Positions 3,690 through 64,000 of a stretch of DNA of 64,000 nt are shown one piece after another. The position numbers and the translations under genes were made by a program. Location of the stretch: NCBI RefSeq assembly GCF_009914755.1, contig NC_060925.1; one strand, given 5' to 3'. The notes below the pieces were generated by a model. That model had not been told where the DNA came from and did not search any database. It worked only from the letters and a program-made list of their open reading frames with translations. How positions within the stretch are numbered: the stretch's first letter is position 1; each line of letters starts with the position of its first letter. The DNA comes from the human T2T-CHM13v2.0 reference genome, Homo sapiens.

Positions 3690-3930
3690 GGAAGCAGCTT
3701 GGCAGGACTTTAGACCTCACACCTGGCTATTATCCCAGCTTAGCCATCTGAGTAGGCAAATAACCTTGGGTGGGGACAATATTTACTCTACAAGCCTCAG
3801 CCTTCTCGACTGTAAACTGACGACATTAATCACACCGTCTTACACAGTCATGAACATTACCTGAGATGACCCGTGCAGAGCGTTTACTACCTGCTCACAG
3901 TAAGTGCTCAGTAAATGCCCGCGTTACTAC
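3690..3930 (+). mobile_element. MIR SINE
   Basis: 'agcctcagccttctcgactgtaaa..acagtaagtgctcagtaaatg'. Confidence 0.6.
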
Positions 3931-5822
3931 CATTACCTGCAAGGAGGTCATTTCAGTGCTGGATTCGGTAAGGAGACATAGACTAAATGGGTGACAGTCA
4001 CTCAGCAGAGGAGGCCCCATCTGGGCTCTGCAGGGAAGTCAGCAAGCAGCAGGCGTAGGGCTGGGTGGCTCCCTACTTGCAGCAAGAGCAACTTGCTGGC
4101 TCTCAGGTGCTCCTGTCCCCTGCTCAGACCCTCCTCATCACCCCGATGTGCCAGGATTCATCTATCTGTCCACCTTTCTCACCAGCCTGGGAGTCACTCT
4201 CTGTACCTGCAGGGTCCAGCACATAGTAGGTGACAATGAATGTTTATTGAAGGAGGAAGGTACAGCCAGCCAGAGGTGCTGGATCTGGAAGTGACTTGGG
4301 CCAATCTGAGCTGCCTTCAGGCTCCCTAAAAAGAGGACCTAATTCTAGGGGACTCTGCAAGCTGCTGAGGTCTTCTGCGAGAGGGGAAAGGGATCATAGC
4401 AGTGGGGGACAGAGGCAGAGAGACTCAGGATGGGACAGCAACCAGCCCCAGCCATGTAGCTGGGTTCTCAGCCAGAGAAGACTGAGATCAACAGCAGGAC
4501 AGGCTCCGAACAGGAAAGTGAGCATCTGATTCTCCCCAGGAGTAGGGAGAGAGCATGAGATTTGGTGCCTGGAAACTGGGCCTGCCTCTGGCATCCCCTT
4601 GCTGTGGAGTTGGGGCAGCACAGTCCCTCTCCAGGCCTCAGTTTCTCTGTCTATAGAATGAACAATTAAGTGGGGTGACCTATGAAGTGGTCATCCAGCT
4701 CTGACCCCCTGGGATCTAGGAATGGGCTGCTCTTCAGGGGCTGAACAGAGGCTCTTGCCAGAGTTCTTAGCCCCAGGCCCATCACATGCTGCACCGAGGG
4801 CCCCTAAGGGCCACTCTGACCTTATTAGGCACCTGCTCACCAACCCCCCCAGGACTCCATCCCAAGAAGATATCAGAAATGAAGGGAGAAAACACTAATA
4901 AATACAGTACCTGGAACTTCCTGCCCTAAGAAACTATGGATCTAGAGGGGCCTTCACTCCCTCCCTCATTCATTCAGTCAGTCAGACAGGCAATAACTCA
5001 TCAGACCTCAAGTGGGTCCTTTTGGTTCCAGGCCCTATGCTGGGCACTGGAGATGGTGCCACGAGGAAGATCCTGCAGAAGCACACAGTCTAAAGTGAAA
5101 ACAGACTGCGGGACCGACAATTGGGATCTGGAGCGGTAGGGGTTGCAATTGGCGGCAGGAGGCAGGGTCTAGTGACACGGAATGAGAGGAGATGCACCGG
5201 CCAAGCCAGAGCCTTCAGCTCAAAAGCATCCTGGGAAGCCCCTCAGTCCCACGTAAACAGGGACAGCTGATCACCCTCTTTGGAGGGGGTGCTCCACACC
5301 TCCAAGCTTGTAATGGAGGAGATGATGGGGCAGAGGAGGACCCTTTGAGAGAGGGAAACTCACAAGGGGCGGTGGAGAGAAGGCAGATGGGGTCATTTCT
5401 TCCCTCCACCTCCTGGGCTCTGCCTCTAGGTGAGGTCTCCCTGTGCCCTGACCAGGTCTGTGAGCTCCACCTTCTGCATCTTGAGGGCAAGCAGAAGGCC
5501 CTATAGCGGGCAGCGAGTGATAGCAGAGTTTTCCAGCATCTTTCCCCATCCACTGAAAGCCCAGTGGGCACAGAGTGCGTGCTGGCTCCCCCATCCACCG
5601 CTGCCTTTCCTGGTATCAGTCCCCAGGGCCAGCCGTGGTCTCTGGACCCAGAACCCCACTGGTCACTGCCCAGGCTGGGAACAGCAGCCCTGGTGGGGGC
5701 TGCTCCTCACTGGTGCCAAGCCCTGCTTCACAACCCCAGATCCTTTGCCTTGGGGGAAAGCAGTCTACATTGGCCCCCACTCCAGCCGGGCTCCTGCTGC
5801 ACTTTGATATATTGGCCTAATA

Positions 5823-62974: not shown

Positions 62975-63321
<347 letters not shown>

Positions 63322-63377
63322 TTACACTGTATCAGGTATAAGTAACCTAGAGATGATTTAAAGTACATGAGAGGATA

Positions 63378-63903
63378 GGCCAGGCACAGAGGCTCATGCC
63401 TGTAATTTCAGCGCTTTGGAAGGCCGAGGTGTGCAGATTACTTGAGGTCAGGAGTTCAAGACCATCCTGACCAACATGGTGAAATCTGTTGACCTGACAG
63501 AAGGAGAATGAGAATTAGTCTCAGAGTTTAATATTGAATATGCTGCAGGCCCATACGCTCTCTTTTTTGTAGCAGAGTACATGAACATTATTATAATAAA
63601 TGCCCTAACTACTACAAATCTTTCTAGGAGCACTATACACTATGCATTTTCCAGAACTCTATACCACACATTTTATTATCTAAACCCTCCTCTTAACCTC
63701 CCTGTCTCTACTTTTAAAAATATATATAGAAATTAGCCAGCCATGGTGGCTCATGCCTGTGATCCCAGCTATTCAGGAGGCTGAGGCATCAGAACTGCTT
63801 GAACCCGGGAGGCAGAGGTTGCGGTGAACCGAGATCACGCCACTGCACTCCAGCCTGGGTGATGGAGTGAGACCCTGTCCCAAAAAAAATTAAAAATAAA
63901 AAT
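63378..63903 (+). mobile_element. AluS split by a NUMT between its arms
   Basis: Left arm 63378-63488; resumes 'tctctac' at 63705; 18-bp TSD aaagta(c/t)atgagaggata at 63360-63377 and 63904-63921. Confidence 0.93.
63489..63705 (+). pseudogene. MT-ND1: NUMT: nuclear copy of a mitochondrial ND1 fragment
   Basis: Mitochondrial-code translation [42 protein letters not shown], then (+1 frameshift) [28 protein letters not shown]. This matches the ND1 signature FDLxEGESELVSGFNxEYAAGPFALFF. Confidence 0.96.
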
Positions 63904-64000
63904 AAAGTATATGAGAGGATATGTGAAGTTTATACACAAATACTACAGCATTTTATAGAAGGGACTTGAGCATCCGCAGATTTTAGTATCACCGCAGATA

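What the first reader, a model, noticed from the sequence alone, without database searches (positions are those of the whole stretch)
63378..63921. Mitochondrial ND1 fragment captured exactly between the two arms of an Alu (NUMT in Alu in MER2)
Seen: the Alu left arm stops at 'ggtgaaatctgt', about 217 bp of ND1-like sequence follows, and the Alu resumes at 'tctctac' with essentially no Alu loss. 'ctgt' flanks both junctions (63486-63489, 63702-63705), and ND1 'tccctgt' mimics Alu 'ccccgt'. One 18-bp TSD brackets Alu plus NUMT. The insert is in ND1 mRNA sense, co-oriented with the Alu. Known: NUMTs usually arise by end-joining capture of mtDNA, and L1 ORF2p can switch templates (as in U6-L1 chimeras). 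Inference: either microhomology-mediated capture into a pre-existing Alu, or an RNA-mediated NUMT made by an Alu>ND1 mRNA>Alu double template switch during retrotransposition, which would be an unusual route.
Basis: partly seen in the sequence, partly recalled or inferred. Interest (0 to 1): 0.85.

Follow-up and report, generated by a model that had tools for sequence, protein, structure and literature searches.

The report
Old mitochondrial fragment inside an Alu
A 216-base dead copy of part of the mitochondrial ND1 gene sits inside an old Alu repeat on human chromosome 1; it is real, already catalogued, and looks like ordinary patching of a DNA break with stray mitochondrial DNA.

Summary
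Window 63490-63705 is a decayed ND1 fragment (Pfam NADHdh E 2.3e-10; solved ND1 chains, residues 199-240, E 2e-17). It splits one + strand Alu with no Alu base lost. One 18-19 nt target-site duplication brackets the whole block. In 5 of 5 uninterrupted copies of the surrounding old repeat the two flanks are contiguous.

The NUMT is already in a published catalogue: Tsuji 2012, hg18 chr1:18794493-18794707, mt 3902-4115, + strand, inserted before the rhesus split.

The junctions are one blunt or 1-nt joint and one 4-6 nt overlap or duplication (CTGT/CCCTGT). This lies within the published range for end-joining NUMT insertion: 54% no deletion, 24% duplications of 1-11 nt, 35% microhomology. "The Alu resumes exactly" and "one duplication brackets both" follow automatically from insertion into an Alu already in place.

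A double switch of reverse transcriptase would need an unguided return to within 6 nt of where it left. I put it at about 4%. It is not refuted: internal dating cannot separate the ages of Alu and NUMT, and no primate genomes were at hand. No second Alu-ND1-Alu copy turned up in the genome.

Ordinary; low interest.

The parts
63241..63358 (.). Left flank: old dispersed repeat (recalled as MER2/Tigger-type; name not tested) that received the Alu
   Evidence: Genome search found 1347 first-look candidates, 40 scored at 78-88% identity. It is contiguous with the right flank in 5 of 5 uninterrupted paralogues.
63359..63377 (+). Left copy of the Alu target-site duplication
   Evidence: It matches 63903-63921 in 18 of 19 positions. 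The two flanks overlap by 18-19 nt in 5 of 5 paralogues.
63378..63489 (+). Alu, 5' piece: left monomer up to the decayed CCCCGT motif (tctgt)
   Evidence: BLAST to the left arms of other Alus in the window; MAFFT with 15 Alus; sub-threshold Metazoa_SRP match at 63379-63490.
63490..63705 (+). NUMT: ND1 pseudogene fragment, mt about 3902-4115, mRNA sense. Bases 63700-63705 (CCCTGT) can be read as ND1 or as a duplicated Alu motif; base 63489 (T) is likewise ambiguous.
   Evidence: translation, Pfam, solved ND1 chains; 23 other ND1-like NUMTs at 72-85% identity; alignment with 20 of those copies; catalogue entry of Tsuji 2012.
63616..63616 (+). One-base insertion that shifts the ND1 frame
   Evidence: This column is gapped in all 17 other near-full copies. 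The reading frame changes.
63706..63881 (+). Alu, 3' piece: end of the left monomer (ctctac), A-rich linker with small indels, right monomer
   Evidence: sub-threshold Metazoa_SRP match at 63736-63883.
63882..63902 (+). A-rich tail of the Alu
   Evidence: Read directly from the sequence.
63903..63921 (+). Right copy of the Alu target-site duplication
63922..64000 (.). Right flank: continuation of the same old dispersed repeat
   Evidence: It aligns to the 5 paralogues directly after the duplicated 18-19 nt.

Best explanation
An AluS-type element inserted by ordinary L1-driven target-primed reverse transcription into an older DNA-transposon relic. That event made the 18-19 nt duplication. Later, a chromosomal double-strand break arose inside this Alu, at the CCCCGT|CTCTAC step just before the A-rich linker. 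Tsuji's dating places the NUMT before the human-rhesus split. A free fragment of mitochondrial DNA, 216 bp of ND1, was ligated into the break by non-homologous end joining.

The right joint used a 4-6 nt overlap: ND1 ...CCCTGT against Alu ...CCCCGT. This can be read equally as a staggered break whose overhang was filled in, giving a short duplication. The left joint was blunt or used one T. No Alu base was lost. The fragment has since decayed as neutral nuclear DNA.

Shown: identity of all the parts, the nesting, the junction anatomy, uniqueness in the genome searched, and the catalogue entry. Inferred: the order of the two events and the DNA nature of the insert.
For: (a) Nesting. One duplication brackets the block, and the two flanks are contiguous in 5 of 5 paralogues.

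(b) No Alu column is lost in the alignment with 15 Alus. This is what any insertion into an existing element looks like.

(c) The junction anatomy matches the published spectrum for 71 primate NUMT insertions and 152 joints. There, 54% had no deletion, 24% had duplications of 1-11 nt, and 35% of joints had significant microhomology, 1-7 bp in all. I read the abstract and sections 7 and 8 of PMC2567098.

(d) For 103 datable human NUMTs with a retrotransposon within 500 bp, the retrotransposon came first in 93, arrived at the 'same time' in 10, and came later in 0. I read passages of PMC3467031.

[quoted passage not shown] I read one passage of PMC2820518. The closest other ND1 NUMT (C5, 85% identity) runs on from ND1 into what I read, from recall, as tRNA-Ile, past the end of the ND1 reading frame.

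(f) There is no second copy of the composite. Of the 22 other loci that hold ND1-like matches, 21 carry mt homology past both ends of this insert and 1 past the right end only.
Against: Nothing observed speaks against it, but several things fail to prove it.

Internal dating does not show the NUMT to be younger than the Alu. Alu non-CpG divergence from a consensus of 15 window Alus is 26/241 (10.8%). NUMT changes at sites conserved in 17 other copies are 5/79 to 11/150 (6.3-7.3%). Fisher p is 0.19-0.29. The NUMT's terminal branch in a maximum-likelihood tree is 0.119. So co-insertion is not excluded by the clock.

Tsuji 2012 found NUMTs inside retrotransposons to be rarer than chance, only 10 of 557, so this class is uncommon.

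The 5-of-6 likeness of the insert's last six bases to the Alu motif left of the break has a chance of about 0.005. That also fits a homology-guided template switch.
Confidence: 0.85

Rival explanations
1. RNA-mediated co-insertion. During target-primed reverse transcription of an Alu RNA, L1 ORF2p copied the right arm and linker and then jumped to an ND1 mRNA at ...CCCUGU, guided by its likeness to Alu CCCCGU. It copied about 216 nt, jumped back to the Alu RNA at the same motif, and finished the left arm. Alu and NUMT would then have arrived together.
For: One duplication and one A-tail bracket both parts. ND1 is in mRNA sense and co-oriented with the Alu. There is a 4-6 nt likeness at the right joint, where the first jump would occur. 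The ages of Alu and NUMT cannot be told apart. Double template jumps by a LINE reverse transcriptase have been proposed for a fungal tripartite pseudogene (PMC2104539; search listing and start of abstract only).
Against: The first two points are equally expected from insertion into an Alu already in place, and shared orientation is a 1-in-2 coincidence.

The second jump has at most 1 nt of guiding homology. The insert's left end reads TTGACC where the Alu reads CTCTAC to the right of the landing point. Yet it would have landed within 6 nt of the point of departure, in an element of about 300 nt. That is a coincidence of the order of 1 in 50 to 1 in 300, and later insertion does not need it.

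Known L1 chimeras, as I recall them and as described in passages of PMC11838501, join a 5' partner to a 5'-truncated 3' partner. They do not place an internal piece of a foreign RNA inside an otherwise complete element.

ND1 mRNA lies in the mitochondrial matrix (established knowledge). The main text of a 2025 survey of L1 chimeras holds no word starting with 'mitochondri' and no 'NUMT' (0 occurrences each). A review states that NUMTs come from DNA, not cDNA.
Confidence: 0.04
2. Composite made elsewhere and then retrotransposed. The NUMT entered an Alu source copy at another locus. The 520-nt composite was transcribed and inserted here by L1, so the duplication dates the arrival of the composite.
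For: One duplication and one A-tail bracket the composite. The ages of the two parts cannot be told apart.
Against: No source or sibling copy was found. Of 24 ND1-like matches in the genome, only the window's own carries these junctions. The search scores only the best candidates, so the count is a lower bound. The insert now holds a run of six T (63561-63566) in sense, which would stop RNA polymerase III. Other copies read TTCTTT there, so the run may have arisen later.
Confidence: 0.03
3. DNA-templated copying rather than ligation. A broken or stalled 3' end in the Alu (...CCCCGT) annealed to a mitochondrial DNA fragment, copied about 216 nt, and returned to the Alu through the newly made ...CCCTGT. 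This would be a microhomology-mediated template switch or synthesis-dependent repair. It is still a later, DNA-level event.
For: The insert is bounded on the right by CCCTGT, which matches the Alu motif in 5 of 6 positions; chance is about 0.005. Upstream of the insert's left end, ancestral ND1 reads CCCCTTTT, loosely like the Alu motif.
Against: In the register that gives the observed sequence, the left-hand likeness is only 4 of 6, with two mismatches next to the 3' end. Chance for that is about 0.04 (the register is my reading). A staggered break joined by classical end joining explains the same pattern, and such duplications are documented in 24% of NUMT insertions.
Confidence: 0.08

Closest known systems
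NUMT insertion by non-homologous end joining, as described for primates by Hazkani-Covo & Covo 2008 (PMC2567098)
   Same: The insert is an mtDNA fragment in a chromosomal break with no loss of target bases. One joint has 4-6 nt of overlap or a short target duplication, and the other is blunt or uses 1 nt. All of this lies within their reported ranges.
   Different: Their cases are human- or chimpanzee-specific and have an empty-site outgroup. This one predates the rhesus split (Tsuji age class a), and I could not look at an empty or Alu-only site.
The human NUMT catalogue of Tsuji et al. 2012 (PMC3467031): entry hg18 chr1:18794493-18794707, mt 3902-4115, +, age a, unique
   Same: Chromosome, strand, length (214 against 216 bp), ND1 segment and 'unique' status all agree. 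It is the only chr1 entry listed between 18.16 and 35.49 Mb in the passage shown. Their text notes 10 NUMTs that lie inside retrotransposons.
   Different: I matched hg18 to this assembly by these properties and by a recalled distance to PAX7, not by a coordinate lift-over. I did not see whether this entry is one of their ten.
L1 ORF2p chimeric retrocopies (U6/L1, Alu/L1 and similar; PMC11838501, PMC6789731, PMC4476161) and the tripartite double-jump pseudogene of Magnaporthe (PMC2104539)
   Same: One target-site duplication and one A-tail surround sequences of two origins in the same orientation.
   Different: Those chimeras are end-to-end joins of a 5' partner to a truncated 3' partner. Here an internal piece of a mitochondrial gene interrupts an otherwise complete Alu at a single point. 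No mitochondrial partner is mentioned in the main text of PMC11838501. For the other three papers I saw only the search listing.
The reverse nesting, a retrotransposon inserted into a NUMT
   Same: The same two kinds of sequence are nested. An example turned up here: in L021 (C22:36638749-36639910) an antisense Alu lies at 197-496 between two ND1 pieces at 81-191 and 498-856. The two pieces overlap by about 11 nt in mitochondrial coordinates.
   Different: The order of events is the opposite.

Membership tests
NUMT (nuclear copy of mitochondrial DNA) | Significant similarity to a mitochondrial gene | tested here: met
   Pfam NADHdh E 2.3e-10, above its cut-off. Mammalian ND1 chains, residues 199-240, E about 2e-17.
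NUMT (nuclear copy of mitochondrial DNA) | Lies in a nuclear chromosome, flanked by nuclear sequence | tested here: met
   The window is C1:18352001-18416000 of the 24-contig assembly. Alu and old-repeat flanks lie on both sides.
NUMT (nuclear copy of mitochondrial DNA) | Decayed and not a working gene | tested here: met
   Only about 72 codons of a 318-codon gene are present. There is a frameshift at 63616 and there are in-frame stops.
NUMT (nuclear copy of mitochondrial DNA) | Independent insertion, not a copy of another NUMT | tested here: inconclusive
   The best other nuclear match is 85% identical, and it is longer at both ends. Tsuji lists the entry as 'unique'. Two nuclear copies that split at the time of insertion could by now differ by about this much, so an old nuclear origin is not strictly excluded.
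Alu SINE inserted by target-primed reverse transcription | Two 7SL-derived monomers joined by an A-rich linker | tested here: met
   Both arms align to 15 other dimeric elements of the window. Sub-threshold Metazoa_SRP matches cover both arms. The subfamily (AluS-like) is recalled, not tested.
Alu SINE inserted by target-primed reverse transcription | A-rich 3' tail and a target-site duplication of 7-20 nt at an A/T-rich site | tested here: met
   The tail is at 63882-63902. The duplication matches in 18 of 19 positions. It is confirmed as a duplication by 5 of 5 uninterrupted paralogues. The duplication starts at TTT|AAAG, which resembles the L1 endonuclease site (motif recalled).
End-joining NUMT integration | Little or no target loss; joints blunt, or with 1-7 nt microhomology, or a 1-11 nt duplication | tested here: met
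   No Alu column is lost. The joints were read. The ranges come from PMC2567098.
End-joining NUMT integration | A pre-insertion allele (here an Alu without the NUMT) in an outgroup | not testable with these tools
   No primate genomes are held.
L1 ORF2p template-switch chimera | One duplication and one A-tail around both parts | tested here: met
   This feature does not discriminate, because later insertion into the Alu gives the same picture.
L1 ORF2p template-switch chimera | End-to-end join of a 5' partner to a 5'-truncated 3' partner | tested here: not met
   The Alu is complete on both sides of a single point. The ND1 piece is internal to its gene at both ends, residues about 199-270 of 318.
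L1 ORF2p template-switch chimera | Both parts arrive at the same node of the species tree | not testable with these tools
   The internal clock is uninformative.

The most novel reading that the evidence does not exclude
The ND1 piece entered as RNA. L1 ORF2p, while copying an Alu RNA, made an excursion onto a mitochondrial ND1 transcript and came back, guided by the shared CCCYGU motif. That would make this a reverse-transcribed NUMT that arrived together with its Alu. It would be evidence that mitochondrial transcripts can reach L1 ribonucleoprotein particles in the germ line, and that some short intragenic NUMTs are cDNAs.
Probability: 0.04. Interest if true: 0.75.

Novelty: already known. 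Interest (0 to 1): 0.12.

Why it matters
As it stands it matters little. It is one more old, short, neutral NUMT, already listed in a 2012 catalogue. It was inserted by the accepted route into one of the million Alus.

Its modest value is as a clean textbook example of three-level nesting: a DNA-transposon relic, then an Alu, then a NUMT. Both junctions are readable after tens of millions of years. It also belongs to a class, NUMTs inside retrotransposons, that one study found to be rarer than chance (10 of 557).

Only if a primate comparison and a genome-wide survey pointed to co-insertion would it bear on an open question, namely whether any NUMT arises from RNA.

Tried and rejected
(1) Dating the two events from the sequence itself was inconclusive. 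I compared the Alu's divergence from a consensus of 15 window Alus with the NUMT's private changes (7/208), its changes at conserved sites and its maximum-likelihood terminal branch. Fisher p was 0.19-0.29. The consensus is generic and not subfamily-specific. Four of the 26 Alu differences lie in the linker and 3 in the tail, by my count from the printed alignment.

(2) Looking for a modern-mtDNA reference failed. The assembly searched has 24 contigs and gave no match above 85% identity. I therefore measured no distance to present-day human mtDNA and did not place the insert on a primate mtDNA tree.

(3) L1 endonuclease as the maker of the break: a nick at the T-run opposite the A-rich linker would predict a duplication of CTCTACT to the right of the joint. 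The duplicated or overlapping bases lie to the left instead. No support.

(4) A search for inverted terminal repeats of the host repeat in L001:800-2600 found none. The element seems truncated, and the MER2 name stays untested.

(5) The first three-sequence MAFFT run aligned the left arm to the right arm because the two Alu monomers are alike. I replaced it with the 16-sequence alignment.

(6) The MAFFT run of the paralogues against the whole block misplaced their downstream halves. I replaced it with the BLAST of the two flanks.

(7) Earlier findings of this scan were not open. One supplementary file of PMC3467031 (file 1) was not searched by the tool.

(8) A literature search for RNA-mediated NUMTs linked to LINE-1 returned nothing relevant among its 15 listed papers; 440 papers held at least 3 of the 5 terms. 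Together, these are the only searches behind my statement that I found no report of an Alu-mtRNA-Alu chimera.

Full report
WHAT IS THERE.

The + strand of window 63359-63921 reads, in order:
- a 19-nt direct repeat, 63359-63377;
- the 5' part of an Alu, 63378-63489;
- 216 bases unrelated to Alu, 63490-63705;
- the rest of the same Alu, 63706-63881;
- an A-rich tail, 63882-63902;
- the second copy of the direct repeat, 63903-63921, matching the first in 18 of 19 positions.
The chance of such a pair at two fixed places is about 2e-10.

THE INSERT IS ND1.

Under the vertebrate mitochondrial code the frame starting at 63488 gives 46 residues. They match Pfam NADHdh (E 2.3e-10, 40.8 bits against a cut-off of 27). 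They also match 33 solved complex I subunit sequences. The ten best are mammalian ND1, residues 199-240 of 318, with E from 2.3e-17 to 1.8e-15.

After a one-base insertion at 63616 the ND1 reading continues in the next frame. In-frame stops are present. The piece is a pseudogene fragment in mRNA sense on the + strand.

The insert keeps T in DLTEGE and A in NALTT, as mouse ND1 does. The chains reading DLAEGE and NTLTTT, which I take from recall to be the human ones, differ there. This fits an old insertion.

THE HOST IS ONE ALU AND NOTHING IS MISSING FROM IT.

BLAST of the two pieces against the window finds the left and right arms of many dimeric repeats. I aligned the whole block with 15 of them. 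All 15 run straight from ...GGTGAAA through CCCYRT to CTCTAC... where the split element carries its insert, and no Alu column is lost.

Both pieces give sub-threshold matches to Rfam Metazoa_SRP on the + strand, as expected for 7SL-derived monomers.

The flanks belong to a dispersed old repeat: 1347 first-look candidates, 40 scored at 78-88% identity. In 5 of 5 uninterrupted paralogues the left and right flanks are contiguous and overlap by 18-19 nt. So the repeat pair is a true target-site duplication around the whole block. The name MER2 for that repeat, and AluS for the Alu, come from recall and were not tested.

THE JUNCTIONS.

The left Alu piece ends in tCTGT. This is Alu CCCCGT with one C lost, one C>T, and the CpG decayed. 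The insert ends in CCCTGT, and the Alu goes on with CTCTAC.

Twenty other ND1 NUMT copies from the same genome were aligned with the window's insert. Where they cover the spot, they show that native ND1 reads CCCT[A/G]T at exactly this place and then TTTTATGAA. The last 4-6 bases of the insert can therefore be read in two ways. They may be ND1 that happens to match the Alu motif left of the break in 5 of 6 positions (chance about 0.005). Or they may be a short duplication of the Alu motif with which the ND1 end overlapped.

At the left joint only the T at 63489 is shared. In the register that yields the observed sequence, the likeness between ND1 upstream of the insert and the Alu is 4 of 6 (chance about 0.04; the register is my reading).

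In short, one joint shows 4-6 nt of microhomology or duplication and the other is blunt or uses 1 nt.

COMPARISON WITH WHAT IS KNOWN ABOUT NUMT INSERTION.

Hazkani-Covo and Covo 2008 (PMC2567098; I read the abstract and sections 7 and 8) analysed 152 joints of lineage-specific human and chimpanzee NUMTs. They found no deletion in 54% of insertions, target duplications of 1-11 nt in 17 of 71 (24%), and significant microhomology at 53 joints (35%), with lengths of 1-7 bp. All of this lies within classical end joining. The present junctions fall inside every one of these ranges.

Tsuji et al. 2012 (PMC3467031; I read passages and one supplementary table) list this very NUMT. The entry is hg18 chr1:18794493-18794707, mt 3902-4115, + strand, age class a (after the mouse split and before the rhesus split), intergenic, unique. 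I matched the entry by chromosome, strand, length and ND1 segment. I also used a position predicted from the recalled distance to PAX7. I did not use a lift-over.

The same paper reports that only 10 of 557 NUMTs near retrotransposons lie inside one. For 103 datable NUMTs the neighbouring retrotransposon came first in 93, at the 'same time' in 10, and never later.

IS THERE A SECOND COPY?

A search of the whole assembly with the insert plus 4 and 3 flanking bases gave 24 matches, one of them the window itself. The tool scores only the best candidates, so this count is a lower bound.

The other 23 matches lie in 22 loci. With a 491-nt probe taken from the longest close relative, mitochondrial homology runs past both ends of our insert in 21 of the 22 loci and past the right end only in L023. 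None shares these junctions.

The closest relative (C5, 85% identity) continues from ND1 into what I read, from recall, as tRNA-Ile. It thus runs past the end of the ND1 reading frame. There is therefore no sign that the composite ever multiplied.

CAN THE ORDER OF EVENTS BE READ FROM THE SEQUENCE? No.

The Alu differs from a majority consensus of the 15 window Alus at 26 of 241 non-CpG columns (10.8%). By my count from the printed alignment, 19 of these lie in the two arms. The other Alus range from 5.0 to 17.7%.

The NUMT differs from the other copies at 5 of 79 sites that are invariant in all 17 of them. It differs at 8 of 127 sites shared by at least 16, and at 11 of 150 shared by at least 15. 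These proportions do not differ from the Alu's (Fisher p 0.19-0.29).

In a maximum-likelihood tree the window's copy groups with L002 and L015 (bootstrap 80). Its terminal branch is 0.119, against 0.029 for L002. That long branch is unexplained. It may include mitochondrial change on a side lineage.

The clock therefore allows both co-insertion and a later insertion within some millions of years.

WEIGHING THE MECHANISMS.

The first two are what any insertion into an Alu already in place must look like. The third is a coin toss.

The RNA route needs two jumps of the reverse transcriptase. The first, from Alu to ND1 mRNA, could be guided by the CCCYGU likeness. The second, back to Alu RNA, has at most one base of guiding homology. 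Even so, it must land within 6 nt of the point of departure, which later insertion does not require.

Known L1 chimeras join a 5' partner end to end with a truncated 3' partner (passages of PMC11838501; the other papers only as listing). They do not place an internal piece of foreign RNA inside a complete element. That survey's main text has no occurrence of words starting with 'mitochondri' and none of 'NUMT'. ND1 mRNA is made and kept in the mitochondrial matrix (established knowledge).

My odds are:
- later DNA-level capture by end joining, 0.85;
- a DNA-templated copy variant of the same later event, 0.08;
- the RNA double switch, 0.04;
- retrotransposition of a composite made elsewhere, 0.03.

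WHAT WOULD DECIDE IT.

The test also has a limit. By Tsuji's class the NUMT predates the rhesus split. If the Alu is absent from New World monkeys, no living lineage branches between the two possible events, and this locus can never show an Alu-only state.

VERDICT.

The structure is an ordinary, already catalogued, old NUMT nested in an Alu, which is itself nested in a DNA-transposon relic. The unusual route is not excluded, but nothing specific supports it.

Noticed in passing
L021 (G000:C22:36638749-36639910), locus positions 81-856: This is the reverse nesting. An antisense full-length Alu (197-496) lies between two pieces of an old ND1 NUMT (81-191 and 498-856). The two pieces overlap by about 11 nt in mitochondrial coordinates, which looks like a target-site duplication made of ND1 sequence.
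   Followed up: partly
L019 (G000:C22:24412960-24415016), locus positions 501-616 and 1454-1743: An ND1 NUMT is split into two pieces about 840 bases apart. The window Alu used as a probe does not match the gap. What interrupts it was not examined.
   Followed up: no
window 63490-63699 compared with L002: In the maximum-likelihood tree of ND1 NUMT copies the window's copy has a terminal branch of 0.119. Its close relative L002 has 0.029, although the two branch off near each other. Possible causes are a faster local mutation rate, a mitochondrial side lineage, or tree error.
   Followed up: no
window 62975-63240: A second Alu lies on the + strand in the same old repeat, 140 bases upstream. Its alignment to the split Alu's left arm starts only at position 39, so it appears 5'-truncated. 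It has a long A-rich tail that degenerates into AAC/AAT repeats.
   Followed up: partly
window 63070-63121, 63734-63785 (+); 63138-63197, 63802-63861 (-): There are sub-threshold Rfam matches to mir-1268 and mir-3135 inside the right arms of both Alus. These are most likely Alu-derived miRNA families matching their parent repeat, not genes.
   Followed up: no
window 63706-63735: The A-rich linker of the split Alu differs from the 15 other Alus by small indels: extra TTT after CTCTACT and a TATATAG stretch. This lies 7-25 bases to the right of the NUMT joint. Whether it is repair debris from the same break or later slippage cannot be told.
   Followed up: no
L002 (G000:C5:61576726-61579937), locus positions 1979-2090: A fragment of an antisense Alu with a long T-run lies about 170 bases upstream of the C5 NUMT. 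This fits the published enrichment of retrotransposons near NUMTs.
   Followed up: no
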